Below the pieces are notes generated by a model that saw only the letters and a list, made by a program, of their open reading frames with translations, had not been told where the DNA came from and did no database searches. This document shows, piece after piece, positions 1-51,100 of a DNA stretch of 64,000 nt; position 1 is the first letter of the stretch, and the number at the start of each line of letters is the position of its first letter. Source of the stretch: Takakia lepidozioides (lineage: Eukaryota > Plantae > Bryophyta); contig CM060732.1 in the NCBI GenBank assembly GCA_030704615.1, positions 46,934,001 to 46,998,000 of the forward strand. The letters are read 5' to 3'. Both the position numbers and the translations under genes were made by a program.

Positions 1-3766
<3,766 letters not shown>

Positions 3767-8123: not shown

Positions 8124-8126
8124 CAC

Positions 8127-18750: not shown

Positions 18751-18757
18751 ATCCATT

Positions 18758-19107
18758 TGTCAAGTTAAATAAGCACAGTGTGAAAACAGCTAGCATAAAA
18801 CTAGTTGTTTGTATTTAACACTTGGATTTAGGTCAAGTGTTAAATCAGGTGTCAAGTTTAGTTTGACACCTGGTCCGTCTTATCTTCACCAGAGCGGCAG
18901 TCGCGCGGCTCATCTCTCTCGAGTTGAGCCTGCGCGACCGAGCTCTTGCAGCGTTTAGGACTGAGTGTGCTTATGATGGGAGTATAGGTTGTTGTGGGGT
19001 GGAGTCCCCATAGCTTGGGGTGCCCCTGGCTCGACTTCTATTCTAAAGAGTGATGGTTTTGGTTGTCATGTTTTGTGTCAACAGTGTGTTCTTAGCTTTT
19101 CTTATCA
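18758..19107 (+). repeat. E2 repeat A1 (350 bp, TG...CA)
   Basis: Matches 30639-30988 with two differences seen. Confidence 0.96.
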
Positions 19108-19123
19108 CTCGAGAGAGATGAGC
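19108..19123 (+). promoter_or_regulatory. E2 self-complementary primer-binding site
   Basis: CTCGAGAGAGATGAGC directly after A1 is the reverse complement of GCTCATCTCTCTCGAG at 18908-18923; no TGG-type tRNA PBS. Confidence 0.8.
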
Positions 19124-21711: not shown

Positions 21712-22461
21712 ATGGCTGGGGGAAATGAGGACGTAATTGAAGGGCAGGTCTCTTCTCTTAGCCTGTGCACACAAGGGGACAAGATCTATGTTTCCCAAGG
21801 AACTCAGACTGATTTGAGTGGAGAACAGTTGGACGAGTTGATTGCATACTGGGAGTCAGGCATTAGCAGTAGACAACAGACTGCTGTAGTTGGCATTGAG
21901 GGCCTCAATATCGCCTTGGACAGTCAGAACTCTGTTGGAGCCAGCAGTTCTGCAGCTGTAGGTGAAATACCAAAGTGGGTGAAAGCTAGGCTTGGAACAC
22001 AGCCAAAGACAGCTCCGGGGACCAAGGTGTTCAGCCACAAGGCCGTGGTGTACTGGAGCAGAGGAGCAGGAGCTGCACAAGTTTGTGCAATTAGACAGTG
22101 TTGCAGACGGACACGCTCTGCACAAGGCAACCACGAGCGGGGGTTCATTAGCGAGGACAAGTTTGTTCTGTTTGAAGGCGATGCAGTCATCCGCAATGAA
22201 GACACCCGCAACCGTCTCAAAGCTTTCGAGTTGAGAGACTATCAGACCCTACCTTTGTTTTCTTTAGTGTTCAGTGAGCGGGAGATAGGGGAATACTGCT
22301 TTGTCTCTACCTGGCAGAAAGAGGAGGAGGGTTGGTTAGAGCGAGCTACTGTAGCTTGGGACAAGGTTAGTGGCAGGTTTCTGGACATAGATATACCTCC
22401 TACACCTTACCATCAAGCAGAGCGAGGCACTTTGAGAGAAGTCTGGAAGTTGATAGCATAG
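21712..22461 (+). CDS. Extra 249-aa ORF of unknown function in the E2 leader
   Basis: Uninterrupted ATG-started ORF upstream of gag; no counterpart seen in the E4 leader. Confidence 0.5.
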   Translation: MAGGNEDVIEGQVSSLSLCTQGDKIYVSQGTQTDLSGEQLDELIAYWESGISSRQQTAVVGIEGLNIALDSQNSVGASSSAAVGEIPKWVKARLGTQPKTAPGTKVFSHKAVVYWSRGAGAAQVCAIRQCCRRTRSAQGNHERGFISEDKFVLFEGDAVIRNEDTRNRLKAFELRDYQTLPLFSLVFSEREIGEYCFVSTWQKEEEGWLERATVAWDKVSGRFLDIDIPPTPYHQAERGTLREVWKLIA

Positions 22462-22980
22462 ATCAGGATTAGATCTTGCTTGGGCGGGCTTCTATTCTTC
22501 CCCTCCATCTCTGTACTATTTTCATTACCTTGTACTTGTAGTTGCCAAAGCCTCTCTTGGTGGAGGCCAGTCAGTCCGGGGTTTTGGGCTGGGATATTCT
22601 GCAGGATCAGCATTGCAGCTGGATTTTGGTGTGGGGGTGTTGATGTTTTGATTTCTTGTGTTTGGATCCCCCCCAACACCTGCATGCTTGACTGTGCGCC
22701 ATGTTGGTTTTGTGTGGGCGCTTGCTTTCATAGGGATTAGGCCGGATTTGATCACCGGTCAATCCTAGAGTATGCTGTCGGTGGTGAGGCTGGAGTGATG
22801 ACCAGCAAGACCACCAGTGTTTCTTCTATGGTGAGGCTGGGTTGATGACCAGCCAACCATAGGAGTTCTTGCGGTGGATGCAGGTACAGGTGCCCTGAGC
22901 CATTGGGATATGACCCTTAGACTGCAACAGGTGCCCACCCGTGTCACTATTAGATTAGTACTAGAGCCTTATAGTGTCAC

Positions 22981-25900
22981 GTGGAGGAGGTGCACATTGT
23001 GAGTGTCATTACGGAGTTACCCAAGGGTTTTGAGGGGAGTACGGCTACAAGCAGTGATAGTGAGAGTGGGTTCACAAGACAAGGTATTCGGTTCAGACCA
23101 CCTTCACCGCCACCCTCAACTACTGTAGAGTCAGACACAGACTCGGAGGCTTCATCAACAGGTGTGCACTTTCATTCGCCATTGTTGTGGGACGACATGG
23201 AGGAGATGTATGGAGCTACCAAGGGGCCTCGTAGGTACTCTGGAGCTGTGGGCACAATCGAGTTGGATGACTTTATCCAGGAGTTCGACAGCTGGTGTGA
23301 TTTGCAGCAGATGCGCAATCCACAGCTATTCACCCCATTCATGGCGTGGAAGGGACTGTTCCAGCATTTGGAAGGCCCGCCTATGGACGATTACCACGAG
23401 TTCAGGCGAGGACATGAAGCAGAGATTGAGGAGTGGAGGATGTATTGGTCACCTGACTACGTCTCCATTACTCGAGGCACGACGCGACCAGTAGCTGCAT
23501 CAGTACCAATAGCTCCCACTGCCAGCACTAGTAGTGGAGCAAGTAGTGCTGGTACTTCTGTAGGTGGTACCAGTTCAAAAGGTGCTACTACTTCTCCTGC
23601 CACGACTACAACACATGTGCCTAGATTCAACCCGGTGGTGGAGTTCTTCCAGGAGTTGCGGAGGAACTACCAAGGTGTACGGACAGAGAAGCTGCGAAGT
23701 TTGCAAGACTTCCAGCGCAAACCCAGTGAGAGCCTGCGAGAGGCGTACACTCGTATGAGGCGCTTGATAAGTGTGACCCAAGGGGTTACTGAAGCTCAGG
23801 CAATCCAGTTTTGGTATGGAATTCTGGACAAGGAGCTCAAGAGAAGGGTGCGAGATGCAACCCTGTTACAAGCAGCCCAACCCACATTAGCAGATGTGTT
23901 TCTGCTGGCTGAGCGGATTGAGCTCAACATGGTGGAGGAGCGAGTTGTTACAATTGGATTTGGCAAGGACATGCCTGTACGGGGCACAGCTGTCAGCCCA
24001 CAAGCACAAGGGACTGCCCAACAGCGTGGTCAGGGGGGCAAGGTTGCCCAGCCCAAGTTCCATGGAGCTTACAGGGGACCTCAGGTGCAGAGGCCCGTGG
24101 CATCTTTTGCAGGCCAACAGCAACCAGGGGTGATATGTTGGACATGTGGAGGACCCCATGTCAAGAGAGATTGCCCAGAGAGTGGCAGAAGCCGGCACAA
24201 GCACAGCCTGCACAGTTGCAGTGTGGGCATTGTGGCAAGTATGGGCATGGAGATGCCCAGTGTTATGACTTGCATCCTGAGTTGCGCCCAGGCCAGTTCC
24301 AAGGGAACAATGGTGGCCGGGGGCGAGGTGGACCAGCCCAAAGAGGACGAGGTGGTCGGGCACGAGGTGCAGGCCAAGGCAAGCTCCACATGGCCAAGGA
24401 CGCGGAGGTCAGGGTGTTGACCAAGGCATGGCCAATCGGCTTCAGCAGCTAGAGTAGAGGCTCGCTGCCATGGCTATAGCTCAGGCGATACCGGCTCCCA
24501 GGCAGGATGGCCCACCTCCCGCTCCTGAGGGAGGAGATATGGGAGGCATGGGATTTATGTGCGGAGCAGCACTACCACTAGAGCAGGTGGAGTCTGCTGC
24601 AGCCGTGACTCGAGGAGCAGCACGAGTTCCTGAGCCACGAGGTGCAGAGGTGGAGTTGGATCCACAACGTGGGGAGGCAAGCCGTCAGGCGAGGCTGCCT
24701 CAGTCATTCACCTTGGCGGAGACAGTGTCAACGCCATCCATGGCACCTAGTTCTCGCCCGACTGTTACCGAGGCGGAGGTTACTATGCCATTGGGGAGAG
24801 CTACACGTGCAGCACTGACACCTGCTACCAAGGCTAGTGCAGCCGGTGTGTTATTGGGGGCAGCCATCTCTGGCAACCATGATTGCGACGCCGGGGGTGA
24901 GACCAGCTGCAGTGTTCAGACTAGCAGCAACTCTCTGTGAGAGTGGGGAGGTCACTTCATCTTCTACGGAGTTAGTGGAAGGTATAGTGGCAGAGGGATC
25001 CTCGGATTTGAGGGTCAAGACTGCCACGGCTGCGCCATGGCAAGTTGCAGCTGCCAGGTTGACGGAGCTGCCAGCTAGGCCAGCCATTGAGCGCGCCATG
25101 GTGACACCTGGAGTTGTCTTGTTAGACAACCAGGGAGGCATTTTCACTTTGAGTGGACCGGCAGGCAAGAAGTACCGGCCACTGCGGGTCTTGTTGGACT
25201 CAGGAGCTCAGCCACTGATGTTGGGCAGAGCTGCTATTGCAAGTTTGGGCCTCATGGAGGCGGATATGGAGCCTTGTCCTTTCCAGATACAGACATCTCT
25301 GGGAGGATCAGAGCAGGCTCGCGGCATGACACGGCATCAGTTGGCTATTAGACTGCAGCCGGATCATCCTGTAGATGGCTCAGTGATGCGAGCCAAGGCC
25401 ATTGTGACAGACGCGGTCTCTTACGATGTCCTCGTTGGTGGGGCAGTGTTATACCCCATGGGCTTCACCCTGGATTTCTGGGAGGAGTCAGCATCCTACA
25501 GGCCTGGATGGCAGTCAGGGGATGGTTGCCGTGCACAGCTCCCTGTGACATTCATTGGGGGTATTGCAGCTGCCCAGCGGGGCAAGATGCCAACACTAGC
25601 CGCCTTCACAGTTGCCGTTAGTTGGCCTGGAGAGTTGCTGGAAGGCAATGCCCATGCAGAGGATGTGCCACCTCCAGCAGAGCAGGATGACATGCATGGT
25701 ACGGCGGAGTTGCCTGCCATGGTTGCTCACACTCCGTTGTGGGGTACGAGCAAGGATTTGCAGCAAGCTGCAGATGGACGGGTGCAACAAGCTTGGGAAG
25801 AAGCTTTTGTACCGTCAGGAGAGGAGGAGAGTGCGGTGATTGCACCAGGGCCACCTCAGTTGTCGCCATTGGACACCACACCTCTTGTGTGGCAGCGGCC

Positions 25901-27158
25901 GGATGAAGGCATTTGCCTTCTGGACTTGTTTGGCGGGATCAGCACCGGATTGGCTGCTGTGCTACAGGCAGGTGTGCGGGTAAGGCGTTACCTGTATGTG
26001 GAGAGGGATGAGACTGCACGACGCGTCTCACTGCGCCATGTGGCTCAGTTGGTACAGCAGTACCCTGACTTGTTGCCTGTGTCTGCAGTTCGTGGATACC
26101 AACAAGCCTTGCCAGCAGACATTTCCTTGTTGGGGGCGCAAGATTTGGAGCAGGTTGGCTCCATTGATCTGATAGTGGCAGGTTGGCCCTGCCAAGGGCA
26201 TTCATCAGCCGGGCATGGCAATGGATTGCGAGACTCGAGGACGGGTCTGTTTTGGGAGATGGTGCGGATTTTGCGCTGCTTGCAGCTTCATCAAGCTGTA
26301 TCTCCAGCATACATCTTGGAGAATGTACCACTGATGGGTGATTCTCCGGCCAGGGTGATGGCCAGTGTGCATCAAGTCCGGTCGTGGCTTGGGTCAGCAG
26401 TGTTGCTGGATGCAGCTGCAGTGGGGTCACGGGCTCATCGTCCACGACTATGGTGGACTAACTTGATGCCACCCGCACTGCTCAAGCGTGCATTTGATGG
26501 GGTGCAGCGGCCAGCACACCTCACCGTGGATGGCATTTTGGACACAGGAAGGCAGTCTCAACGTGTGAGACACGATGACCGTTCGCCTTTGGCAGTGGTC
26601 AACAGGGTGGGTCAACCACGAGCAGCATTACCTACACTGCTCAGCTTCCCAGGATCCCATGCTTTTCGGGATGGTGGACCTGGCCTCCTGTGGGATGCTC
26701 AGTTGCAGCAGTTAGTGGAGCCTAATGCCGACGAGCGAGAGCGGGCTATGGGGTTTTCCACTGGGACCACGGCGGTGCCTTCTCTTTCTGAGGCATCACG
26801 TCGTCAGGTGTTGGGGCAAGCAATGGATCTCAATTGCTTGACCTGGATTGTCAGCTTGGCTATGGCTGAGCAACGTAGAGTGCGGAGTGCACTTCCCTTG
26901 ACGGTCTCTCTGCCTACCGAGACGGTACAGGCAGCGAGTGGGGGCGAGCCGGTGAGGACCACGAGGTGTAGACATCCATGGCACATGTGGGAGGTGCTCG
27001 AGGTTCAGAGGGAGTTGGCAGCGAAGGCAGCTGTGATGGATGAGGTTGGGGATTCTTCTCGGGATGAGGAGGTTCTCAATGATGAGATGATGGGGCAGGA
27101 TGAGGCCTTGTCATTGACTGAGCAGGAAAGGGGTACTGCTCAAGAGGTTGCAGCATAG
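22981..27158 (+). pseudogene. E2 Gag-protease-DNMT polyprotein region (frameshifts near 24190, 24380, 24860; stop near 24454)
   Basis: Gag with zinc knuckles CWTCGGPHVKRDC and CGHCGKYGHGDAQC; aspartic protease LLDSGAQP; DNMT motifs; lesions are not shared with E4. Confidence 0.9.
25911..26840 (+). CDS. C5-cytosine DNA methyltransferase domain (DNMT3-like) within E2, uninterrupted
   Basis: Motif I LDLFGGISTG, II YVERD, IV AGWPCQGHS, VI ILENVP, VIII AHRPRLWWTN, IX ERERAMGF, X RRQVLGQAM in canonical order. Confidence 0.93.
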
Positions 27159-27164
27159 CAACCA
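27156..27164 (+). promoter_or_regulatory. Putative stop-codon readthrough signal TAG-CAA-CCA
   Basis: In-frame TAG followed by CARYYA; identical 9-mer in all four copies; frame continues into RT. Confidence 0.75.
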
Positions 27165-30100
27165 CGGGACGCGTCCTCTACCTCTAAGCCCACTGGACTT
27201 AAGGTTGCAGTTACGGAGGACAATTGGGAGCCTGACATTGGACCCATTGTCACCGGAGGAGAGAGACGACGTATACGGCGGTTCCTGAGGGCTTATAGGA
27301 ATTGCTTTGCCTTCAGTTTGAAGGACTTGGGAGCACTGAAGGGTCAAGAGATCCGTATTGAGTTGGCCACTGACACGCCAATCTTTCGGAGACCCTATAG
27401 ATACAGTGACATGGAGAGGTTTTGATTCAGATGAGGACTCAAGATCTCTGGGAGGCAGGTTTGGTGGAGCTCTCTGGTGGAGAGTATGCTTCAGCCACAG
27501 TGATGCCAGCTAAGAAGGATGTCTATGGCAATTGGACGGAGAGACGTATGTGCGGTGATTACCGGCCTGTAAATCGTCAGACCAAGTCCGATAGGTATGC
27601 CATGCCAACACCAGAGGAGATCTTTGATGCCATTGGGCATTCCAAGGTCTTTAGCACGTTGGATTTACGATCCGGATATCACCAGTTGCCGATCAAGGAG
27701 GCGGATAAGCAAAAGACGGCATTCTGGGGGATCAATGAGCACGGGAAGGATTGCCTATACCAGTGGCGGTTCTTACCATTTGGGCTTAAAAACGCTCCCG
27801 CTGAGTTTCAAAGAGTCATGGACAGGATTCTAGCAGGGGTGGAGTTTGCTCGGTGCTACATAGATGACATCATCATCTTTAGTGCTACGGTGGAGGAGCA
27901 TGAGAGACACCTTCAGGGGGTATTTGAGCGCTTGAGGACGCACGGATTGAAGTTACATCCGGGCAAGTGCAAGTTTTTCCACAACCAGATTGAGTATCTG
28001 GGTCACATGATATATCCTGGAGGATTGGGGGTACAGCAGACTAAGGTAGAGTCCATTGCACAGGTTCCACGCCCCACGGATGTGAGCCGAGTTCGAGCTT
28101 TCATGGGGTTAGCAAACTATTACAGACGGTTTGTTAAGGGATTTAGTGCCATTGCAAAGGCTCTAACCAAGCTGACCAAGGTGGACCAGGAGTGGCAGTG
28201 GGAAGATGAGCAAGAACAAGCTTTTCAAGAGCTCAAGGCGAGGTTGACCTCGGCGCCCATCTTGAGACGACCTATCAGGGGGCGTCCTTTTCAGCTGCAT
28301 ACAGATTGGAGCATGCTGGGGCTTGGAGCGGTGCTCACACAGGTGGATGATGAGGGAAGAGAGTTCGTAGTGGCTTATGCTAGCCGCTCGAACAATGCTG
28401 CAGAGTCTAAGTATAGCTCATATGAGGGAGAATGCTTAGCTGCAGTGTGGGCCGTGGCACACTTCAGGTGCTATTTATACGGCAATCTCTTCACCCTTGT
28501 CACGGATCACCAACCACTCAAGTGGTTGATGGAGTCAGACAAGCTTACGGGGAAGCTTGCACGGTGGGCACTCATCCTTCAAGAGTATGACTTTCAGGTG
28601 GTGCATCGACCGGGTTTGGTCAATCGAAATGCAGATGGGTTGAGTCGCAATCCATGCACGAGCCAACAGGATGACACTGGAGCTCGGTGGCATGGTGAGA
28701 CGGACGAGGAGATGGTGCCCGGATGGCATGCATCTGCATTTCTGTGTATCTTGGCAGCGGAAGGCCAGGTTGGACCTACAACAGGGATGACTGTAGATCA
28801 AGTGTCTGAGGACCCTGAGGCCAGCAATGAGCAGGGTGGCGCCAAAGATATACATGAGGATTCAGTTGTGTTGGACTACCTCCGCAGTGGAGACACGGCA
28901 GCCACTATGACTGCCAAGGAGAGGGATCGGATCCTACAACGAGCCAAGAGGTTCAGGTGGGAGGGGACACACCTGCTCCGAGTGTGGGAGGATGGTCGAG
29001 TGAGGATTGTGCCTCACCCAACACAGCGGGCACGGTTAGTGCGGCATGCCCATGAGGAGTTGGGGCATTTTGGGGTGCGACGCACTCATAGTCTACTGCA
29101 GGGGCAGTATTGGTGGCGTGGTATGCACACAGAGGTGCAACAATTTGTGGCTAGGTGCATGGTGTGTGACAGGGTGCGTGCTTCATTCAACGCCCCTACT
29201 CCACAATTGCACCCTCTTCCGATCATGGGATTGGGCTACAGGTGGAGTCTTGACTTCGCAGGGCCGTTGCCACTGACCATGCGCCACAACAAGTACGTGT
29301 TGGTGATGGTGGAGCACTTCTCCAAGTGGATTGAATTGGTTCCATTGCCTGATAAGGCTAGTGAGGGAGCTGCGTATGCATTCTTGGATTGTGTGCTTAG
29401 CCGATTCGGTGCTCCAGCTGAGGTACTCACGGACCAAGGGAGAGAGTTCTTGGGGGAGTTTCAGGCTTTGTGTGACAAGGCCTTGATAGACCACCGCACC
29501 ACTTCTCGGGATCATCCTGAGGCCGATGGCTTGGCAGAGAGAGTTGTTCAGACAGTAAAGAGGGGTTTGCGCAAGTATGGCTTGCAGAAGGGACACCTAG
29601 GAGATTGGGACCTTCAGTTACCCTGGTTAGCCATGGGCTACAGGTTCAGCAAGCAAGCATCACTTGCCTCCTTCTCACCATACTTTCTTCTCTTTGGCCG
29701 AGAGCCGGATTTGCCTACATCCATTCGCAGAGAAGCTGCTACAGTTCTTAACCTTGACGATCCGGACGTGTGGGCACGTGCATGTGAGCAGCGTGCAGAG
29801 TTGTTCAAGAGAGTCATGCCCATGGCTTTCGAGAACCTTGCCATTGCACAACACCGTGATACGTTGAGGTATGCTACCATACGTGGTGGGGGCTATCGTC
29901 CTGGGGTTCGGAGATTCAACCCTGGTGACTATGTCTATCTGCAGCAGACTGCTCCTACGACCCTGGATGTGACTGCAGGACGTGTTATTTTGAGGGTTCG
30001 AGAGGTCTTGCCCTCAGGCGTCTTGGTCTTGGAGGGTCGGGATGGCATAACTTGGAAGGACCATGTGCGTAATTGTGCGCCATGTCACCTTCCGAATGTC

Positions 30101-30292
30101 GATGGCAGGATTGACCCAAACCTGGCAGTGGTATCTGCAGGTTTGAGGTGCATGTTGTGTGGGTCTGCTAAAGGGGCAGCCACCATGCTGGTGTGTGATC
30201 GATGCTCTAGAGGTTGGCATATGGGATGCTTGACTCCACCTCTTGAGATGGTTCCGGATGGGGATTGGTTATGTCCACAATGCATTGGATAG
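27159..30292 (+). CDS. E2 Pol: RT, RNase H, DDE integrase, C-terminal PHD finger (one frameshift near 27420)
   Basis: LDLRSGYHQ, PFGLKNAP, YIDD; TDWS...GAVL, DHQPL; HEELGH...CMVC, LDFAGP, TDQGREF, AERVV; PHD at 30149-30283 (CMLC...CDRC...HMGC...WLCPQC). Confidence 0.95.
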
Positions 30293-30540
30293 TGGGAGTG
30301 GATACAACCATGGAAGGCTAACAAGCAACGCAAGGCCCAGCTACAGGAGACCTTGAATACACGAAGTCCTGGCTCAAGTTCACAGATTGCAAGACGGCGA
30401 CTAACGATGGGGCTACTCTTGTACCCGGCCTCTTGGTCTATAGAGTTTGAGTACGATAGGGACAGTGATAGAGGACTTAGTACGGCTATGGCTATTACGT
30501 CTTGTAGCTATCTGGAGGTAGAGGGACCTATCCACCAGCT

Positions 30541-30550
30541 AGGGGGGCGA
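30541..30550 (+). promoter_or_regulatory. E2 polypurine tract
   Basis: AGGGGGGCGA directly before B1; CACCAGCTAGGGGGGCGAT is shared by E2, E3 and E4. Confidence 0.85.
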
Positions 30551-30551
30551 T

Positions 30552-31074
30552 TGTGGTAGACTACTTTATTGTGCATATATGTGTGGTGTGGTTTGGACAG
30601 CGATGTAGTTGTGTAGCGATATGTATGCGCACGACAGCTGTCAAGTTAAATAAGCACAGTGTGAAAACAGCTAGCATAAAACTAGTTGTTTGTATTTAAC
30701 ACTTGGATTTAGGTCAAGTGTTAAATCAGGTGTCAAGTTTAGTTTGACACCTGGTCCGTCTTATCTTCACGAGAGCGGCAGTCGCGCGGCTCATCTCTCT
30801 CGAGATGAGCCTGCGCGACCGAGCTCTTGCATCGTTTAGGACTGAGTGTGCTTATGATGGGAGTATAGGTTGTTGTGGGGTGGAGTCCCCATAGCTTGGG
30901 GTGCCCCTGGCTCGACTTCTATTCTAAAGAGTGATGGTTTTGGTTGTCATGTTTTGTGTCAACAGTGTGTTCTTAGCTTTTCTTATCATTGTGGTAGACT
31001 ACTTTATTGTGCATATATGTGTGGTGTGGTTTGGACAGCGATGTAGTTGTGTAGCGATATGTATGCGCACGACA
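30552..31074 (+). repeat. E2 3' terminal block: B1 30552-30636, GC spacer, A2 30639-30988, T, B2 30990-31074
   Basis: B copies identical (85 bp, TG...CA); B1/A2 junction is the palindrome GACAGCTGTC. Confidence 0.95.
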
Positions 31075-31109
31075 CATTTCAAAGAAAAATAAATATTGGA
31101 GGGAAGGCA

Positions 31110-32010
31110 TTGGATGAATTTCGGCGCCGAAATCCGGCGCTAAAACCCTGAAAAGAATTTGGAGGGATGAAGTCGGCTGAATTTCGGCGCCGAAATTCAT
31201 TGCTCGCGAAGGAAAAAAAAATTTCTGGAGGACTTCGGATGAATTTCGGCGCCGAAATTCATTGCTCGCAAAGGAAAATAAAAAAATTCGGGAGGACTTC
31301 GGATGAATTTCGGCGCCGAAATTCATTGCTCGCGAAGGAAAATAAAAAATATCTCCTGGACTTGGAATGAATTTCGGCGCCGAAATTCAATGCTCGCGAA
31401 GGAAAAAAATAAAATCGGGAGGATTTTGGTTGAATTTCGGCGCCGAAATTCATTGCTCTCGAAGAAAAAGGAAAATTAAAATGGAGTACTTGGATGAGAT
31501 TCAGCGCCAAAGTTCATCTGTCGCAAAGAAAAAAAAAACAGAAAGGACTTCCGATGAATTCTGGCACCGAAATCCATCCGCAGGGCAGCAGAATTAGGGT
31601 CGGAAAAGGAGATGAAGAATGAATTTCGGCGCCGAAATACATCCATTCTGCCGAATCAGGATTACTGTCATTCGGAAGTCGGCACCGATATCCGGACACG
31701 TGGTGAATCACGACTGTAATCAGGAACACATTCATCCGTATTTTGGCATCTAAATTCAACCCATATGTGCAGATACAATTTAATGAAGAAGAAGTTCATC
31801 CGAATTTCGGCACCGAAATCCATCCGTTGGGTGTTTGGTCAGTTTAATGAGGTAAACAAATTACGATTTCTGTTGCCAGAATTCATCCCTTGGCTTCCAA
31901 AGCTGTTACATGACAGAGATGTTCATCCAGATTTCGGTGCCGAAATTCATGGGAAGGCCTGATTTATTGTACCCCAAGTGGTTGTACATTACAATTCAGG
32001 CACCAAATAT
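31110..32010. repeat. Array of palindromes GAATTTCGGCGCCGAAATTC, right part, about 65-bp period
   Basis: Near-perfect copies from 31116 to 31640 with related A-rich linkers, then decayed variants (CGGCACCG, CGGTGCCG). Confidence 0.9.
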
Positions 32011-32198
32011 CCGATGTGAACTTGCTGTTTTCGTCCGTTTTTTTAACGTACGTTACACACCTTCATCTTTACGTGCACTGATCACCCATCATGTTGGATA
32101 CGGAATCCTCCAGAAAATCATTTGTGTTATTAGGTAGGACACACTCTTCTCATTGCAGGACTTCGCTGCGGAGCGTACCGAGAGGTCCCGTCTTCAAA

Positions 32199-35100
32199 AT
32201 GGACTCCCGTGTTTGGGTCAACGTGTACTTCCATCCTGATTCTCTGAAAGCTAAAATACCCTGCGACCAAGGATTTGCGATTGTCACTGAACAGTACTTG
32301 TGTGTGAAGTTCGGGCTTCGCCCTGGAACGGTGTTTTTGGAAGAGGAGACGAAGGATGCTTATGGAAATTTTGTGGAAAGTGCCGTCATTCTGCATGCAG
32401 ATTTCGGAAAAGGCAAAGAGTGGCGGCTCCCAGCTTCTGAATCCATCCGGTACAGTGCCATTGGTGAAATCGTGCCTAAAGAGTTCCCACGCTGGAACTT
32501 GGTTGATCCTCCTTCCACAAGAGGGTCTGGCGTGCAAGATGTGAAGGATGTGGGCACCTCTTCACAAGCAGAGAAGCCCAAACATGTGAAAAGGGAAATC
32601 CAGGAAAACAGGGAAACAGTCGTCCAGGACTTATCCAGTGACGATGAAGACTGTATGGTCCTTCCATCGTATGTTTCGAAGTCGTCCGTCACTAGGAGTG
32701 TTCAGCATACACCGTCCGACTCAACTTCCGTCCGCTCAGTAATCGACATATTGCGGAGGATGAAGACAACGGGTTCCCGCTCCAGTGACCTTCTTAGGCT
32801 TGATTACGACAAAACTCCAATCCATTCTGTGGAAACTTTGCCTGATGTTGTGGATGGGAATGCTATCTACGAGTTCCCTCCAGTGCCGGCAGGCGCAGGC
32901 CCAGACGGCATGCTCGCAGGAATGAACAGGAAACATGACGGCCACCCTTGGTGTGTCACCAAAACTTCATCGTCCAACCTGGGTGATGGAGTTCGAGTGA
33001 GATATGTATTGTGTGCTGGGCATCTTAAATGTTTCTCGAGCACATGTTACCATTACACTAGCAAAGGCACCAGGAATGAGACTGACTGGATTGGCAATTC
33101 GTCGACCCCATTTTGGCCTCAAGGTAGAGTTCCTGCAGGGACGTTCAAGTGTGCCCATTGCAACGCAGCCCCTACGTGCATGGCAGTGTGCAACGCCAAG
33201 CAGTACTACATCGGGACCGTCGGCCCAGCGTGCACCAGAGCATGCCCAGGATATTATCAAGGAGGAGGTGAGGTTGAGGCCGGGTGCAAAACCAAAGCAG
33301 ATACAGCTCGCATCGGCACATAGGATTGCAATTGGCAGAATAATGTCGGAGGACGGAAGCACAAGAGAGAAGCTGGGCGAGGGGGACATGAAGGACCTGC
33401 TGGAAGCTGTCTCCCATGTGTGCAGCCCCAATGTCAGGAACCACATTGTCAGCTGCAAGAAACGAATCGGAAGAGGATCAGACATGCACTCCATCTTGGA
33501 AGTGAAGCGCACATGCGGCTACGACTTCATCCAAGGCAGCTTCTTTCCTGGTCAAGGCTCGGAGACGGACAGGTGCTTCATATTTAAGATGTCAACGTGC
33601 GGACCGGGGAGCGGCGTCGATTTGGTGAAGTGGATGACCAGTGGAGACCTCTCAAATTGTTGGGTCATGTTTGACCACATCCGGCGAATTACCAACCACG
33701 ATTGGGTGACAATGGGGGCACATGTATACGACCCACATTGCAGAAAGTTGATGACCATTGCTATCTGCGAAATGAAGGGAGAAGACACAGATTCGGAGTT
33801 GCATATGTGGCGCGGAATTAATGAGCAAATGGCGAGAGCCAAGTTGCCCCCTCCCGATTTTAGGGGCTTCATGGCTGACAATGCCCAGGCAAACTGGGCT
33901 GCAGTTAGGAGGGTATATGGGGACACCCAAAGACTCCAATGGAAGGAAAGGAGAGATCTTGCGGGTTCCACTTCATGCAGAGTTTGACGCAAAACACGAA
34001 AAGGTTCGTGGCGTCACGCCACCGGCAGGATCATATCAGTATGTGCCTAGCGTGGAAAAATGCGAATTCCATCGACGAGGCGGAGACCGAGTTTGCAACC
34101 ATACGCGCCTGGTGGGTGTCTTCAGGGGCAGTGGATGTGAAAGATCAGCCAGAACTGCAAACGTGGCTTGCGTGGTGGCATTATAGATTCTGCCAGTTTG
34201 GAGACTACATGAGACAGGTAAGACATTTCTGTACTTGACAATTGTTCTGTTTTGTGCTTGGACATTCTCCACAATCAGTGACATATCTAATTTCCATCAA
34301 CAGGACATGAGCTTGGAGGATGACACGGATATGCCGACGACGAACATGGCCGAATCGGTGCACTCTTCCTGGCGTGCTTCCTCTGCAGCACATCTCGTTG
34401 ACATGTTGACAGCAACAACAGAAGATATTGTGAGGGCCATCATGCAACAATCTCATTACTACCAGTTTCTGGGAGGAAAGCAATGGGGTATCGGACCAGA
34501 CAGGCAGGAGATGCTGATGAGGGCGGCGCATCGTTCGACCGATCCCAGAAAATGGACTGCTGCATTGCGGGAAACTATAAGGTCAACGCCGTTACACAGT
34601 CGGGGAAACTGCCTGGAGGGCGATGTCCGCAGCCGGCCGGTGAAGAGAAGAATTGAGGACATGCCCGGAGGGGATGGGGATTCATGGAGATCAGATATGA
34701 ACATCCGCACTCAACCTCGGGGCGCAACGATGTTGCGTCCCACGCCTCCACGAAGCAGGACTCGTACCCCCTCTCCTGCAGCATCCATGGAATCGCTGCC
34801 AGACTCGGGACAACATGCCGAGGATGGGCATGTTGCTCCTGTTTTCGTTACCCAATACAACATTCCAATCGTGGAGCAAGATGTGTCGGCCTCGCAGTGG
34901 AGAACTGCACGGACCCGTCCGACATTTCGTGGCAAATGTTGTGCTGTTCGTGTCGACACCAACCAGAGATGCAATGAGATGATTCGGAGGAGCCCGCAGG
35001 GCGGTGTGCCTGCCCCTTGCTTCACAGGGAGATTTGTGTGCGCAAAGTTTGTGGAGGCCACACTGAAGGAGTTTTGGTTCTGCAGGCACGACATCATGTC

Positions 35101-35730
35101 GTGTGTGTTCGGCAAGCCCAAGTATGGTGTACAAGGCATGCCTGAACCACCGGCAGTCTGGCATGTGGAAGTGGTACAGATCTTACCCTGGAGGAGCCAG
35201 ACGCTCTAGGAAGTGCAGGGTTTCGACTGGTGGAGAGGACAGACGTTCCACGAAATCCAATTCCCAATCGTCATCCTCCTCCCACGAGAAGCTCTTCGCC
35301 CCGCATACCGGTGGGTGACCCCGCAGCTTGGCCCACCCATCGGTGGGGTAAACTGAAAAGACGGCGGCCACCAACAAAGGCGAACGACACCAGGATGGCC
35401 AACGCTCTTGCAATGCCCTGCATAGTGCAAGGTTGCAGGGATGTTCCTCACCCCGGGATAGGGCGCATATTTCAGTTGTCAACAGCCGGGTCTGCTGCGC
35501 GCAGTGTCGTGTATGCAATCACGGTTTCACAGTACCCAGCTTGCAACTGTGAGGACTTCCTTGTTATGGAATCGAGGAATGCAGCATACGTCCCCTGCAA
35601 ACACCTTTATTACATTTTTATGAAGCGCATGAGTTGCATATCCGCAGTGGACGTCTTTATCCATGCTCCAACACTGAGTTTCAACGAGCTGCACAAGGCC
35701 CTACGGCAGGATACTGGTCGGACTGCTTGA
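32199..35730 (+). pseudogene. Mutator-like (MULE) DDE transposase with N-terminal Cys-rich domain and C-terminal SWIM finger; intron 34218-34303; frameshifts
   Basis: WVMFDH, GFMADNAQANWAAVRRVYG, CGFHF (CxxH), TTNMAESVHS, SWIM CNCEDF...CKHL; GT-AG intron joins MRQ/DMS in frame. Confidence 0.82.
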
Positions 35731-36186
35731 CATTCCACATTCGGGAAGGAGAAAGTGGCAATTATATTACATTCATCTTCTTGCACCCTATTTTTTTGTG
35801 AGGAATTATACACTTGGTGGTGCCGCATCGCCATGGCTACATGTGAATTTCGTCCACCTTTATGAGAAGACTCCAATTTGCTACAAATACATTGTTACTG
35901 TTCTGCAAATGTGATGCCTTTACAAGATTGCTAGTTCTGTGTCCCAGTGGGAAGGGTCCTACTGCACATTCCAGCATTTGCATACTGCACCTTGTGCAAA
36001 CAGCAATCCATACGACAAAGGACACGTCCCAGCATACTGGCAGTGAATTGCAAATAACATTAACAGAAGATTATCGAAGCATGTATATTCCCCATATGGC
36101 ACAGGGAAGCTGCTTGATTTCTGAATGAAAATGTATGTGCCATGAGTGTCAGCAAGTTGAAACATGTCTACTCTAGCATGCAAGAC

Positions 36187-36786
36187 CTATGGTCCCCTCG
36201 CCCAAGAAGAAGGAACTCGAACTGGCCTCTCAAGGACCTCCTCAGTGACCGGGTGCCTATATTTGAACAAAATGTCAGTGGTTTCTGTCGCCCGGTTGAA
36301 ACTAACGAGGATGTCGTGTTTATCGATAGCGCCCCCTTGGTAGAAGGACATTTTCACAGTGGGCCCTGTGTTCCCCTCCTCCTCATCCTCATAACTGAAG
36401 AGAATGTCCCCACTTTCCGAGCCAGTCCATCCACGCGTAAAGTTTTCACCTATGCACTCATCATACGTCCACTCGCAACAATTCCAGCGATACAACAACG
36501 CTGTGCGTGATCTGTTCGGCTCCCACACATGCGGAAAGTCCAGGTCCATGATGCGTAGGAACCACCTGCTCCCCAGCCGGGGTCCAGGAGAATCGTGCAA
36601 TCCTGGAAGAAACTCCATTGCTCTCAGCTGGACAAGTCGAGGATCGTCCCTGTAAACATCCAGGAAGACAATGATGTCGTCTGCTTTCGGGAAAATGACT
36701 CCCGTCTGGCGTCGATAGATGTGATTCGGGCACGACATGGCCTCACGACACAGCACGAACTCAAAGCAGGGAGGAGATGGGCACAA
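36187..36786 (-). CDS. Hypothetical protein convergent on the transposase (possible accessory gene)
   Basis: 199-codon ORF with globular composition, bracketed by the palindrome-derived repeats; no recognised domain. Confidence 0.4.
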   Translation of the reverse strand: MCPSPPCFEFVLCREAMSCPNHIYRRQTGVIFPKADDIIVFLDVYRDDPRLVQLRAMEFLPGLHDSPGPRLGSRWFLRIMDLDFPHVWEPNRSRTALLYRWNCCEWTYDECIGENFTRGWTGSESGDILFSYEDEEEGNTGPTVKMSFYQGGAIDKHDILVSFNRATETTDILFKYRHPVTEEVLERPVRVPSSWARGP

Positions 36787-36859
36787 CAGAGAAGAGTGAA
36801 GAGCAAAATGAGAGCAAGGCCTCCCTCACCGTAAGGCGGGTATTTGCTCTCCGACGCCC

Positions 36860-37330
36860 AATTTCGGCGCCGTTATTACATGGAGTGCGGAAGCTTCAGC
36901 CGAGAATTTTGTTTCCGCAGGTCAATTTCGGCGCCGTTATTGGTTGCAATCCCCAGCCTTCAGCCGGGTATTTGGTTTCCGGACCCAATTTCGGCGCCGT
37001 TATCGGCTGCACTCCGGTGGCTTCAGCCGAGTATTTGGTTTCTGGGGCCCATTTCGGCGCCGTTATCGCCTGCACTCCGGAGGATGCAGCCGGGTATTTG
37101 GTTGGCAGAGCCCAATTACTTTCACCGTTGTTGGCTTCACTCCCGAGCCTTCAGCCCGCTATTTCTTTTCCTGTGCCCAATTACGGCGTCGTTATACCCA
37201 ACCATCCTGCACTTCTGCAATAGTACTATCCACGGTTATAGGTCGCCATTGCGTTTTCGGAATCTGCAAACCCGGATCCTAATTCCACTTGCGTCTCTGC
37301 CTCTGGGATAATTTCGGTGCCGTTATTGCC
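36860..37330. repeat. Tandem repeats with half-palindrome core AATTTCGGCGCCGTTAT, about 63-bp period
   Basis: Copies near 36860, 36924, 36988, 37051, 37310. Confidence 0.8.
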
Positions 37331-37561
37331 CAGAATTCAGTTATTCTATGACTTGGCCTGGCGGTCCATGAGCCTGGGCTCCAAGTCATGAGCGTACACT
37401 GGTACTCATGAGCGGAGTGCTTCCAGCATGAGCGCGAAAATCTTCGATTTTTGATTATTTTATAGTTTTTGGCCCGAAATAAATCTGCCGAAATTCGAAG
37501 TGTGTTACTTTGCGGCTCATGGGTTAGCCATGCCCGCTCATGAGCTCATGGAATAGCAACC

Positions 37562-43500: not shown

Positions 43501-44540
43501 ATTCTGGAGGGTTGAGATGGCATAGTATGGAAGGACCATGTGCGCAATTGTGCACCATGTCACCTTCCACATATAGATGGGAGGATAGATCCTAACCTTG
43601 CAGTGGTACTTGCAGGATTGCGTTGCATGCTATGTCGGCGTGCTGGTGGCGCCGCAACCATGTTGGTGTGTGACAAATGCTCAAGGGAGTGGCACATGGG
43701 ATGCTTGACACCGCCACTTGAGGAGGTTCCTATCGGAGAATGGTTGTGTCCACGATGCCTTGGACAGAGGTAGTGGGCATGACAATGGTGAGGCGGGCAA
43801 GTGATCCAAGGTCTAGCTAGTGGGCTTCAATGCCATGGATACTCAACTGAAGATCATGGATTGCATGAAGACGACTAACGATGGGGCTACGTTTGCACCC
43901 GGCCAATTGATCTATCGACTTCAGGTGTTGGGATCTGTGCGATTGAAGACCAAACGATGATCTTCTTGGGGTGGATACTTGCAAGCTATCCGTTGTTAGA
44001 GGGACCTAATCACCAGCTAGGGGGGCGATTGTGGCGTGACTTTCTAGGACTATATGCTAGGAAGTGTGGTTGGACAACGATGTATGTTGTGGCACGATGC
44101 TTAGGTGCACGACAGTTGTCATGGTTTTGTTTGTGATTAGTTAGAAATAGTTATTTCTAACTAATTAGGAAATTATACATTTATATTTGTATTTTGTTGG
44201 CATTGGGACTTCATTTGGTTCCATGTGTCAAGTGAGGTGGCGAACCTCACTTGGGACGTGGAGAGGTTATCGACGTAGGCAGGCTCGTCTTCTTCTAGTC
44301 GAGCCTCCCGAGGCCTCTCTCCCCGCCATAGCTCTAGTACTTGAGATGGAGAGTGGGTGAGGTCTGTATGGTGGAGTCCTTTAGCAAAGGTGCCATTGGC
44401 TTGACTTATATAACGTGGTAGGGTGGTTTCTCCTCTTTTCACCATTTCCGTATCTATTGTGGCGTGACTTTCTAGGACTATGCTAGGAAGTGTGGTTGGA
44501 CAATGATGTATGTTGTGGCACGATGCTTAGGTGCACGACC
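37562..44540 (+). mobile_element. E3: 5'-truncated, degenerate DNMT-Gypsy element of a second subfamily with 3' block B1 44030-44114, GT, A 44117-44456, B2 44458-44540
   Basis: Starts in the Gag knuckle region; DSG, DNMT 39307-40236, TAGCAACCA at 40627, YIDD, integrase, PHD 43624-43758, PPT 44019-44028, junction GACAGTTGTC. Confidence 0.92.
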
Positions 44541-48183: not shown

Positions 48184-51100
48184 TGTCGTGCGCATACATA
48201 TCGCTACACAACTACATCACTGTCCAAAACCACACAACACATGTGCACACCACACACTAGTATACCACTAGTCCACCACTAGTCCAACCACTAGTCTACA
48301 ACTAGTCAGTCACTAGGCTGCCACTATGCTGCCCACTATGGCAGTCACTAGTCCACACAATGATAAAGAAGAAGAATACAAGCACGAGCTCACAAATCTG
48401 AAGCATAAACTCATGCATATATAACCTCATCACTCAAATACAAGTCAAGCCAAGTGCACCCCACGCCATGGGGAATCCACACTACGGCGCCATAGCTAGG
48501 CGCGGTGAGGCTCAACTCGAGAAAGATGAGCCTCCCGCGCTTGCCGTGAAGATAACCACTCCAGGGCCTAAATCTGCCTTGACCCCTGGATTGACACTTG
48601 GGCCAATCCCAAATGTCAATATGTAAAAGCTAGCTATTTCCTAGCTAGTTTCACACTAGTGGTAAAATAACTTGACAGCTGTCGTTCGCATACATATCGC
48701 TACATAACTACATCGTTGTCCAAAACCACACAACACATGTGCACGCCACACACTAATATACCACTAGTCCACCACTAGTCCAGCCACTAGTCTACAACTA
48801 GTCAGTCACTAGGCTGCCACTATGCTGCCCACTATGGCAGTCACTAGTCCACACAATCGCCCCCCTAGCTGGTGCTTAGGTCCCTCTAAGTCCAGGTAGC
48901 CACAAGATGTGATAGTGACCATAACCTCACTAAGTCCTCCACCACTATCCCTACTACACTCAAACTCGATAGATCAAGAGGCCGGGTGCAAGAGTTGCCC
49001 CATCGTTAGTCGCCGTCTTGCAACCTGTGAACTTGAGCTTGGGATCTCATGTATTGACTCCTATGAGCTTGGCCTCCCATGTCTTGTTAGCTGCCTCCAG
49101 TCATGTCCACTGCCACTATCCCAAGCAGTGTGGACACAACCAATCTCCGTCAGGAACCTTCTCAAGAGGTGGTGTCAAGCATCCCATATGCCAACCCCTT
49201 GAGCATCGATCATACACCAGCATGGTGGCTGCCTCTTTGGCAGACCCACAGAGCATGCACCTCAAACCTGCAGGTACCACTGCCAAGTTTGGGTCAACTC
49301 TGCCATCGACATTGGGAAGGTGACATGGCGCACAATTACGCACATGGTCTTTCCAAGTCATGCCATCCCGACCCTCCAAGATCAGGACTCCTGAGGGCAA
49401 CACCTCTTGAACCCTCAGAATAACACGCCCTGCAGTAACATCCAGAGTCGTAGGAGTAGTCTGCTGCAAATAAACATAGTCACCAGGGCTAAACCTCCGA
49501 ACCTAGGACGATATCCTCCACCACGTATAGTGGCATACCTCAACGTATTACGGTGTTGTGCAATGGCAAGATTCTCAAAAGCCATGGGCATGACTTTCTT
49601 GAACAACTCTGCACGCTAATCACATGCACGTATCCACACGTCCGGATCGTCAAGGTTAAGGACTTGAGCAGTGTCCCTACGAATGGCTGCAGGCAAATCT
49701 GGCTCTCGGCCAAAGAGAAGGAAATATGGTGAGAAGGAGGCAAGTGATGCTTGTTTGTTGAACCTGTAGCCCATGGCTAACCAAGGAACCTGAAGATCCC
49801 AATCTCCTAGGTGTCCCTTCTGCAAGCCATACTTGCGCAAACCCCTCTTCACCGTCTGAACAACTCTCTCTGCCAAGCCATCGGCCTCAGGATGATCCCG
49901 AGAAGTGGTGCAGTGGTCTATCAAGGCTTTATCACACAAAGCCTGAAACTCCCCCAAGAACTCTCTCCCTTGGTCCGTGAGTACCTCAGCTGGAGCACCA
50001 AATCGGCTAAGCACACGATCCAAGAATGCATACGCAGCCCCCTCACTAGCCTTGTCAGGTAATGGAACCAACTCAATCCACTTGAAGAAGCGCTCCACCA
50101 TCTCCAACACATATCTGTGGTGGCGCATAGTCAGTGGCAACGGTCCTGCGAAGTCAAGACTCCACCTGTAGCCCAATCCCATGATTGGTAAAGGATGCAA
50201 CTGTGGTGTAGGGGCATTGAATGAAGCACGCACCCTGTCACACACCATGCACCTAGCCACGAACTGTTGCACCTCTGTATGCATACCACGCCACCAATAC
50301 AGCCCCTGCAGTAAACTGTGAGTGCGTCGCACTCCAAAATGCCCCAACTCCTCATGGGCATGCCGCACTAACCGTGCATGCTGTGTGGGGTGAGGCACAA
50401 TCCTCACCTGACCATCCTCCCACACTCGAAGTAGGTGTATCCCCTCCCACTTGACCTCTTGGCTCGTTGCAGGATCCGATCCCTCTCCCTGGCAGTCACA
50501 GTGGCTGCCGTGTCTCCCGTGCGGAGGTAGTCCAACACAGCCGAATCCTCATGTATATCTCTGGCACCACATGGCTCATCACTAGCCTCAGGGTCCTCAG
50601 ACACTCCGTCTACAGTCATCCCTGTTGTAGGTCCAACCTGCCTTCCGATGCCAAGATATTCAAAAATGCAGATGCGTGCCATCCCGGCACCATCTCCTCG
50701 TCCGTCTCACCATGCCACTGAGCTCCAGTGTCATCGCCCTCTGATAGGTCGTCTCAGGATAGGCGCCGAGGTCAACCTCGCCTTGAGCTCTTGAAAAGCT
50801 CGTTCCTGCTCATCTTCCCACTGCCACTCCTGGTCCACCTTGGTCAGCTTGGTTAGAGCCTTTGCAATGGTACTAAATCCCTTGACAAACCGTCTATAAT
50901 AGTTTGTCAACCCTATGAAAGCTCGAACTCGGCTCACATCCGTGGGGCGTGGAATTTGTGCAATGGCCTCTACCTTAGTCTGTTGTACCCCCAATCCTCC
51001 AGGATATATCATGTGACCCAGATACTCAATTTGGTTGTGGAAAAACTTGCACTTCCCCGGATGCAATTTCAATCCGTGCGCTCTCAAGCGCTCCAATACC

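What the first reader, a model, noticed from the sequence alone, without database searches (positions are those of the whole stretch)
30149..30283. PHD finger, not a chromodomain, at the integrase C-terminus
Seen: a C4HC3 PHD in E2, E3 and E4, with G or E rather than W two residues before the His, and the CL-PPL--VP-G-W-CP-C pattern. Known: this pattern is typical of PHDs that read unmethylated H3K4 (AIRE/CHD4/BHC80 type), and DNMT3 enzymes use a PHD-like ADD domain for the same mark. Inference: the element couples a chromatin reader for target choice with a de novo methyltransferase, consistent with E2 and E4 both lying inside transposon-like DNA rather than host genes.
Basis: partly seen in the sequence, partly recalled or inferred. 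Interest (0 to 1): 0.7.

Follow-up and report, generated by a model that had tools for sequence, protein, structure and literature searches.

The report
PHD finger on plant retrotransposon integrase
A plant jumping gene carries a chromatin-reader-type zinc finger at the tail of its integrase, which likely steers new copies towards silent DNA, and it belongs to a green-plant-wide family that nearly always pairs this finger with a DNMT3-like DNA methyltransferase domain.

Summary
Observation largely confirmed. 30149-30283 is a C4HC3 PHD (Pfam E 6e-13) ending the RT-RH-integrase frame of Ty3/Gypsy element E2, with no chromodomain. E3 is intact; E4 has lost one zinc cysteine. The finger is under purifying selection (dN/dS 0.12).

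Interpretation partly supported. There is no K4me3 aromatic cage, and the H3 A1/R2 contacts are kept. But the acidic K4me0 contacts of AIRE, BHC80, KDM5 and BAZ2 fingers are absent: 0 of 17 close relatives versus 193 of 268 distant ones. Weak or permissive H3-tail tethering is likelier than strict K4me0 reading.

PHD and DNMT3-like domains co-occur family-wide: 28 of 29 DNMT-anchored integrase proteins carry a canonical PHD. In algal relatives the DNMT sits just before the integrase. Here it sits before a conserved TAG-CAA-CCA leaky-stop motif, so direct ADD-like coupling is unlikely.

Closest known: KnitGypsy-Dnmt3 and PHD-bearing Gypsy-7a_cRei. The scan noted this PHD before on other DNA (e1-7225970). 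Binding and targeting remain untested.

The parts
30149..30283 (+). PHD finger (C4HC3) at the integrase C-terminus of element E2
   Evidence: (PF00628 E 6.2e-13)
27410..30292 (+). RT-RNase H-integrase-PHD reading frame of E2 (RT 27542-28012, RNase H 28199-28588, H2C2 29018-29182, rve 29237-29518, predicted beta-strand C-terminal domain about 29930-30090); a frame break near 27420 separates it from the upstream frame
27156..27164 (+). In-frame amber codon plus CAA CCA (UAG-CAR-YYA leaky-stop context) between DNMT and RT; same in E1 (15215), E3 (40627) and E4 (51862, minus)
25893..26867 (+). DNMT3-like C5 methyltransferase domain (motif I 25926, PC 26187, ENV 26319, RxR 26439) between protease and RT
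   Evidence: (DNMT3A E 4.5e-11)
25191..25211 (+). Aspartic protease active-site motif (DSG), read from the sequence
   Evidence: homologues P0300-P0302 carry PF13650
22975..24420 (+). Gag (weak Retrotrans_gag, E 9e-4, below cut-off), broken into several frames
18758..19107 (+). Terminal repeat A1 (TG...CA), preceded by 4-bp target duplication CATT; holds a 16-nt stretch (18908-18923) complementary to the primer site
19108..19123 (+). Primer-binding site complementary to repeat A (self-priming type), with a compensatory change between E2 and E4
30537..30549 (+). Polypurine-tract-like sequence just before repeat B1
30550..31074 (+). Split 3' repeats B1 (30550-30636), A2 (30639-30988), B2 (30989-31074, ends CA), followed by the second CATT
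43624..43758 (+). PHD of copy E3 (all eight ligands; Glu two before His); E3 is 5'-truncated and has stops
49125..49259 (-). PHD of copy E4 (third Cys replaced by Tyr); E4 spans 59142-48184 with 4-bp duplication GAGT
31075..37500 (+). MULE-like DNA transposon (63-bp repeat arrays, transposase-like ORFs 32082-35730) whose repeat array E2 interrupts
   Evidence: no Pfam hit

Best explanation
The stretch is a conserved PHD zinc finger fused to the end of the integrase of a DNMT3-carrying Ty3/Gypsy retrotransposon, and it likely works as a chromatin tether that grips the free N-terminus of histone H3 and so would bias integration away from H3K4me3 promoters into silent, transposon-rich DNA. Shown: the domain, its position, selection on it, no aromatic cage, kept A1-pocket and R2-binding residues, lost acidic K4 contacts, family-wide co-occurrence with a DNMT3-like domain, and an invariant amber plus CAA CCA between DNMT and RT. 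Inferred: (a) binding relies on H3 A1/R2 and main-chain contacts, as in ATXR5 or UHRF1, so K4me0 preference is probably modest and affinity lower than in algal relatives; (b) Gag-protease-DNMT is the abundant product and RT-RH-IN-PHD the rare read-through product; (c) reader and methyltransferase are co-selected but act as separate proteins, the PHD choosing the site and the DNMT acting on the element's own or nearby DNA.
For: PF00628 E 6e-13 and fold match to H3-tail readers. dN/dS 0.12 for E2 v E3 and E2 v E4, similar to the integrase C-terminal domain (0.09-0.11). All eight ligands in 16 of 17 close and 259 of 268 distant relatives; the R2-binding Asp in 16 of 17 and 258 of 268. Pro36, Gly38, Trp40, Leu14 and Asp17 line up with KDM5B P347, G349, W351, L325 and D328, of which W351, L325 and D328 are needed for H3 binding by mutagenesis. 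ATXR5 reads K4me0 through main-chain carbonyls and UHRF1 binds H3 almost regardless of K4 state. The finger holds the position where chromoviruses carry their targeting chromodomain. A PHD-bearing Chlamydomonas Gypsy inserts intergenically 2.6 times more than expected. E2 sits in another transposon, with the empty site seen in other contigs. TAG CAA CCA is in 4 of 4 window copies and shows no listed variant at 2% or more, while six flanking bases vary.
Against: No binding or insertion-site data exist for this family. Acidic residues at loop positions 10/11 are in 0 of 17 close relatives. Neutralising them weakens H3 binding 17-fold in BAZ2A, and KDM5B E321A and D308A weaken it about 12- and 6.5-fold, so this finger may bind H3 poorly. 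The second R2-binding Asp of ATXR5 and UHRF1 is Ser here (acidic in 0 of 17). E3 v E4 dN/dS is 0.33 and E2-E3 dS is near saturation. The Gypsy-7a bias could be selection after insertion, and its membership of this clade was not tested. Every window copy is broken.
Confidence: 0.5

Rival explanations
1. One reading: a strict AIRE/BHC80-type H3K4me0 reader that is functionally coupled to the element's DNMT, like the ADD domain of animal DNMT3, so that one mark directs both integration and de novo methylation.
For: No cage Trp. Near-obligate co-occurrence: 28 of 29 DNMT-anchored integrase proteins have a canonical PHD and the 29th a weak one. In 99 of 122 RT+integrase proteins the DNMT lies a median 145 residues before the integrase, so a DNMT-IN-PHD fusion is conceivable in algal members, whose fingers keep the acidic patch.
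Against: In this clade RT, RNase H and a stop codon lie between DNMT and PHD. The AIRE/BHC80 N-terminal Asp and the acidic wall are missing. The PHD persists where the DNMT is absent (P0122, P0126, P0141) or has lost its catalytic motifs (7 of 120, including named volvocine proteins). Plant and algal DNMT3s lack ADD.
Confidence: 0.15
2. In the streptophyte clade the finger no longer reads histones; it is kept as a structural, DNA-binding or host-protein-binding appendix of the integrase.
For: Mean net charge moved from -4.2 (266 distant) to +1.7 (17 close), with Lys/Arg at positions -1 (16 of 17) and 8 (11 of 17). The clade also lost the long post-PHD tail (median 5 v 270 residues). Non-ligand PHD columns are no more conserved than the linker (0.48 v 0.50).
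Against: Asp17, Met13, Gly22, Pro36, Gly38 and Trp40, the H3 A1/R2 surface, stay conserved in the close clade. E2's own finger is neutral (net 0), not basic.
Confidence: 0.25
3. The finger binds H3 but acts after or apart from target choice, for example holding the integration complex on chromatin or recruiting host repair or silencing factors; the clustering in transposon islands comes from selection against genic insertions.
For: Only two insertions with intact ends could be examined, in one roughly 50-kb island between host genes. Craig et al. leave targeting versus selection open for Gypsy-7a.
Against: Fusion to the integrase C-terminus in the chromodomain position across the green lineage fits a role during integration.
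Confidence: 0.1

Closest known systems
KnitGypsy-Dnmt3 of Klebsormidium nitens (de Mendoza et al. 2018, PMC5890265; passages, section 3 part 3 and a supplement text search seen; Fig. 4c itself not visible)
   Same: Ty3/Gypsy domains with a DNMT3-like domain in the polyprotein and DIRS-like split repeats. A Klebsormidium protein with DNMT before RT (P0105) falls in the same integrase clade as E2 (support 0.97); another Klebsormidium protein (P0097) has a partial PHD.
   Different: 'PHD' occurs 0 times in the paper's text and 3 supplement files. It treats the capture as specific to the K. nitens lineage, whereas relatives occur in named chlorophytes, Coleochaete and Marchantia. I saw no mention of a stop codon or self-priming in the parts read.
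Gypsy-7a_cRei and other PHD-bearing Chlamydomonas elements (Craig et al. 2023, PMC9940879, passages; REM1 and CR1 PHDs only as cited there)
   Same: Gypsy polyprotein with a PHD finger proposed to limit harmful insertions; intergenic bias 2.6-fold.
   Different: No DNMT is listed in its domain legend; the PHD's place relative to the integrase and its kinship to this clade were not established here (one search found nothing).
Chromoviruses (Neumann et al. 2019, PMC6317226, passages; Gao et al. 2008 as cited in PMC6673714)
   Same: A chromatin-reader domain at the integrase C-terminus; self-priming as in the Tcn1 and Tf1/sushi group.
   Different: PHD instead of chromodomain; split repeats; DNMT cargo. 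'PHD' occurs 0 times in the REXdb survey, which required two matching LTRs with TG/CA ends and so would likely miss split-repeat elements.
H3-tail-reading PHDs: KDM5A/B PHD1, BAZ2A/B, ATXR5, UHRF1, BHC80, AIRE (PMC4225485, PMC5415848, PMC5499861, PMC3214078; passages)
   Same: Same ligand spacing, A1 pocket, R2-binding Asp, no cage Trp; 40-49% identity in fold matches.
   Different: No acidic wall, no N-terminal Asp, no second R2 Asp in E2-E4; only the main-chain (ATXR5/UHRF1-like) mode of K4 contact remains possible.
EpiLTRs (bioRxiv 10.64898/2026.05.21.726589; passages and section 7)
   Same: LTR elements that combine methyltransferases with a chromatin reader.
   Different: Those carry a chromodomain, DAM and a DNMT4-sister DNMT; this lineage has a PHD and a DNMT3-like domain, and algal members add Tudor-like and amino-methyltransferase-like tails.

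Membership tests
PHD finger (PF00628) | C4HC3 ligands and Pfam score above cut-off | tested here: met
   E2 49 bits v cut-off 24; E3 has all ligands; E4 lacks Cys3
PHD finger (PF00628) | Cross-brace PHD fold | tested here: met
   Predicted model, pLDDT above 90 over the finger, rmsd 0.8-2.1 A to solved PHDs
H3K4me3-reading PHD | Cage Trp two residues before the His | tested here: not met
   Gly or Glu in E2-E4; aromatic in 2 of 285 relatives
AIRE/BHC80-type H3K4me0 reader | Acidic residue just N-terminal to Cys1 contacting K4 (AIRE D297, BHC80 D489) | tested here: not met
   Positions -4 to -1 are A-G-L-R; acidic at -3 or -2 in 0 of 17 close relatives. Contacts from PMC3214078; their offset from Cys1 is recalled
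BAZ2/KDM5-PHD1 'acidic wall' reader | Asp/Glu at loop positions 10-11 | tested here: not met
   Ala-Ala in E2-E4; 0 of 17 close v 193 of 268 distant
H3 N-terminus readers (ATXR5/UHRF1 mode) | A1 pocket (Pro, Gly, Trp) and Asp after Cys3 | tested here: met
   P36, G38, W40, D17 present and conserved
H3 N-terminus readers (ATXR5/UHRF1 mode) | Second R2-binding Asp (ATXR5 D44, UHRF1 D337) | tested here: not met
   Ser at position 20; acidic in 0 of 17 and 28 of 268
H3 N-terminus readers (ATXR5/UHRF1 mode) | Measured binding to H3 peptide | not testable with these tools
   Needs ITC or peptide arrays
Ty3/Gypsy LTR retrotransposon | Order Gag-PR-RT-RH-IN with DDE integrase | tested here: met
Ty3/Gypsy LTR retrotransposon | TG...CA ends and target duplication | tested here: met
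   4-bp duplications in E2 and E4; E2 empty site seen in other contigs
Ty3/Gypsy LTR retrotransposon | Two matching full LTRs | tested here: not met
   Repeats are split A...B-A-B
Chromovirus | Chromodomain at the integrase C-terminus | tested here: not met
   No PF00385 in E2 or in the precomputed lists of 200 hit rows; one sub-cut-off hit at the far end of P0135
Chromovirus | RT phylogeny within chromovirus clades | not tested
   No reference set was available
KnitGypsy-Dnmt3 type | DNMT3-like domain with catalytic motifs in a Gypsy polyprotein | tested here: met
KnitGypsy-Dnmt3 type | DIRS-like split repeats | tested here: met
KnitGypsy-Dnmt3 type | Common clade with Klebsormidium elements | tested here: met
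   Integrase tree, support 0.97, midpoint root, FastTree only
De novo DNA methyltransferase | Catalytic activity on unmethylated DNA | not testable with these tools
   Motifs intact in E2; the K. nitens domain was inactive in yeast, inconclusive

The most novel reading that the evidence does not exclude
An ancient, largely overlooked Ty3/Gypsy lineage of green plants carries its own epigenetic kit. Algal members read RT-RH-DNMT3-integrase-PHD-Tudor-like-amino-methyltransferase-like. The streptophyte branch moved the DNMT in front of a leaky amber stop, so that it is made and packaged at Gag level to methylate the element's own cDNA or its landing site, dropped the tail, and retuned the PHD from an acidic K4me0 reader to a different chromatin tether. 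DNMT3 capture would then date to the base of green plants, not to Klebsormidium.
Probability: 0.3. Interest if true: 0.75.

Novelty: new variant of a known kind. Interest (0 to 1): 0.5.

Why it matters
Chromodomains are the best-known chromatin readers on plant LTR integrases. A PHD in the same place, kept across green algae and bryophytes, would be a parallel targeting solution. It is directly testable with a 55-residue domain, and the algal (acidic) and streptophyte (neutral) versions form a natural contrast. The near-constant pairing with a DNMT3-like domain, mostly missed by Pfam, suggests that the published Klebsormidium case is one branch of a much older lineage. That bears on why transposons carry their own methyltransferases and on counts of DNMT genes in algal genomes.

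Tried and rejected
No whole genome is held for this window, so genome-wide insertion context and copy number were not measured.

A structure prediction of the DNMT domain with the PHD gave no result, so physical pairing is open. A PHD-H3 model was not attempted, because no histone sequence was among the session's sequences.

The fold search of the algal tail model did not complete, so that domain rests on motifs and language-model features only.

No RNA holder is listed for the element; run X5 is only guessed to be RNA. Nothing is concluded about expression.

The first dN/dS script returned only the PHD comparisons and was rerun. The Fisher test (p 1.5e-9) ignores kinship and is not used as evidence; the loss is probably one event.

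A separate zinc site in the conserved C-A-P-C-H motif before the PHD was considered; only the second Cys is nearly invariant (first Cys 60-68%), so it is not claimed.

Recent capture of the PHD from a host gene in this genome was rejected: the integrase-tail-plus-PHD unit is shared with 282 cluster representatives at E up to 1e-30.

Gypsy-7a could not be linked to CHLRE_09g398141 (supplement cut when stored). ORF 21640-22461 inside E2 has no Pfam match and stays unexplained.

Literature searches for this combination (0 papers; no listed title or abstract describes an integrase-PHD plus DNMT3 lineage, and I read passages of only some). Repbase, the Craig 2021 thesis, REM1 (2005), figures and bioRxiv supplements could not be seen and may already record the architecture.

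Full report
Observation. 30149-30283 (+) encodes a 45-residue C4HC3 finger that scores 49 bits on Pfam PHD (E 6.2e-13). It ends the 960-codon frame 27410-30292 after RT, RNase H, the H2C2 finger and the rve core; no chromodomain is found. Homologous fingers lie in E3 (43624-43758 +) and E4 (49125-49259 -). E4's third Cys is Tyr, so it is not a full C4HC3. A model from a 75-row alignment (pLDDT 89.9) matches solved PHDs at 0.8-2.1 A. Between copies the finger has dN/dS 0.12 (E2 v E3, E2 v E4) and 0.33 (E3 v E4). For comparison, RT gives 0.03-0.15, the integrase core 0.05-0.10 and the DNMT 0.08-0.31. E2-E3 dS is near saturation.

The element. E2 runs 18758-31074 with TG...CA ends and a 4-bp duplication; E4 runs 59142-48184, likewise. 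The repeats are split, A...B-A-B, and the A copies are 99% identical. The primer site is a perfect 16-nt complement of a stretch in A in both elements. The best match in 1000 shuffles was 11-12 nt, and the match falls to 8 nt across elements, a compensatory change. A DNMT domain, best matched by DNMT3A (E 4.5e-11) and with motifs I, IV, VI and VIII intact, lies between protease and RT. This fits KnitGypsy-Dnmt3, described with DIRS-like repeats and Gypsy domains (PMC5890265). All four window copies are broken; E2 has a frame break near 27420. The family is abundant: 11,746 contigs of run X2 lie on 1.4 kb (not a copy number). The host is likely a bryophyte, inferred from the nearest named relative, a Marchantia protein at 78%.

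The family. Three searches with the integrase tail plus PHD gave 293 proteins (the last lists 150 of 7361 hits). Named ones come from Marchantia, Sphagnum, Coleochaete, Klebsormidium, Chlamydomonas, Volvox, Pleodorina, Haematococcus and Cymbomonas; most are unnamed. With 33 more, 159 of 326 hold a DNMT-like region by phmmer with the E2 domain, many without a Pfam flag. Of 122 proteins with RT followed by integrase, 99 have the DNMT between RNase H and integrase, 5 before RT, and 18 none. Of those 18, 15 start within 240 residues of RT, so an upstream DNMT could not be seen, and 3 lack it despite long upstream sequence. Catalytic motifs are kept in 113 of 120 integrase-side and 13 of 13 protease-side domains. 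A search anchored on the DNMT alone gave 38 proteins; 29 reach the integrase, 28 of these have a canonical PHD and the last a weak one; none lists a chromodomain. That search was limited to 1365-3895 residues and to shared words. An integrase tree (143 rows, from 207 segments; those of unknown DNMT state were dropped unless close to E2; FastTree, midpoint root) puts E2, the Klebsormidium protein P0105 and 16 others in a clade (0.97) with no integrase-side DNMT. Eleven of the 13 protease-side DNMTs also group (0.99) among integrase-side ones. This is consistent with relocation, but without outgroups it is not proof.

What the finger can read. There is no cage: an aromatic residue at the Trp position occurs in 0 of 17 close (62% identity or more, including E2-E4) and 2 of 268 distant relatives. 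The alignment to KDM5B PHD1 is ungapped. Leu14, Asp17, Pro36, Gly38 and Trp40 match L325, D328, P347, G349 and W351, which hold H3 A1 and R2 (PMC4225485). But the E321 and D308 positions are Ala, and those mutations weaken KDM5B binding about 12- and 6.5-fold. The BAZ2A acidic patch (D1688/E1689; 17-fold loss when neutralised, PMC5415848) maps to positions 10-11, acidic in 0 of 17 close but 193 of 268 distant relatives. The N-terminal Asp used by AIRE and BHC80 (PMC3214078; offset recalled) is also absent. Mean net charge is +1.7 versus -4.2, and a 13-tip clade around E2 (0.995) shows the change, so it is probably one event. ATXR5 binds K4 through main-chain carbonyls (PMC5499861) and UHRF1 is nearly blind to K4 methylation, so H3 binding stays possible. 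Distant, algal-type fingers look like BAZ2/KDM5-type K4me0 readers; this one looks like a weakened or retuned version.

Coupling with the DNMT. All four copies carry an in-frame TAG followed by CAA CCA between DNMT and RT, the UAG-CAR-YYA read-through context of tobacco mosaic virus (PMC3542737). Among 759 and 822 contigs of two runs of one sample (possibly the source of the window), no variant at 2% or more is listed in those nine bases, while six flanking bases vary. One contig of a second organism agrees. Seven homologues end shortly after their DNMT with no RT (two carry a protease hit), and nine close homologues begin just before RT. So here the DNMT belongs to the upstream product and the PHD to the read-through product (inferred). 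An ADD-like intramolecular link is unlikely, and plant and algal DNMT3s have no ADD (PMC12344493). In algal members the DNMT is a median 145 residues from the integrase, so tighter coupling is possible there.

Insertion context. E2 interrupts a 63-bp repeat array next to ORFs with MULE-like features (Atlas 0.92, PF10551 on 61% of members; no Pfam hit). Contigs in two runs join the two flanks with a single CATT, the empty site. E4 lies beside a Ulp1-protease fragment (E 2.7e-7). Host genes (tubulin, SURNod19, an ANTH protein) flank the island. Two sites cannot separate targeting from selection.

Algal tail. Distant relatives continue a median 270 residues past the PHD, against 5 in the close clade. 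Of 236 tails, 185 share a Tudor-like stretch and 142 a domain with DPxxG, ND and SP(W/P)F motifs; 85 of the 142 proteins also hold the DNMT. Pfam hits are below cut-off. The nearest Atlas clusters with a family are N6-methylase-like (0.94), and the model shows alternating helices and strands. No fold search was obtained.

Comparison and verdict. PHDs on retrotransposons are known (PMC6673714, PMC9940879, PMC8557442, bioRxiv 2021.11.30.470311; passages), as is the DNMT3-Gypsy of Klebsormidium. The scan's earlier notes report the split repeats, self-priming and this PHD on other DNA; I had noted the first two before looking. I found no paper on the family-wide PHD-DNMT3 pairing, the two DNMT positions, the amber stop or the acid loss, but Repbase, theses, figures and some supplements were not seen. 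Verdict: real feature, new variant of a known kind, best read as an integrase chromatin tether (0.5), interest 0.5.

Noticed in passing
window 27156-27164 (+); 15215, 40627 (+), 51862 (-): Conserved in-frame TAG plus CAA CCA between DNMT and RT in all four copies, a tobamovirus-type read-through context that would make Gag-protease-DNMT the major product.
   Followed up: yes
window 18758-19123 and 30537-31074; 59142-48184 (-): Split repeats A...B-A-B with TG/CA ends, 4-bp target duplications, a palindromic B-A junction and a self-priming primer site with a compensatory change.
   Followed up: yes
proteins P0192, P0162, P0116 and about 140 others (not in the window): Algal relatives carry a Tudor-like stretch and an amino-methyltransferase-like domain after the PHD; 85 also carry the DNMT3-like domain.
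   Followed up: partly
proteins P0113 (C. reinhardtii CHLRE_09g398141), P0108 (Pleodorina), P0107, P0109, P0177, P0044, P0205: DNMT-like domain between RNase H and integrase that has lost catalytic motifs but is retained; missed by Pfam in P0113 and P0108.
   Followed up: partly
window 21640-22461 (+): 273-codon ORF inside E2, upstream of gag, with no Pfam match.
   Followed up: partly
window 31075-37500, 18400-18757: MULE-like DNA transposon with palindromic 63-bp repeat arrays and broken transposase-like ORFs; ORF 36187-36825 (-) is unexplained.
   Followed up: partly
window 44541-48183: Repeat-rich DNA with a Ulp1 protease fragment (45603-45872 -) and a 301-codon low-complexity ORF starting at E4's end.
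   Followed up: partly
window 56674-57324 and 57756-58111: 10-bp tandem repeat arrays in the 5' untranslated part of E4, absent from E2.
   Followed up: no
window 1-1400, 6500-8150 (-), 9240-10270 (-), 62545-63951: Host genes and fragments: tubulin, SURNod19, a Copia RT fragment and an ANTH/ENTH protein.
   Followed up: no
protein P0344 (cluster of P0008): A member of this plant retrotransposon clade is deposited under an uncultured cyanobacterium name, probably a mis-binned metagenome contig.
   Followed up: no
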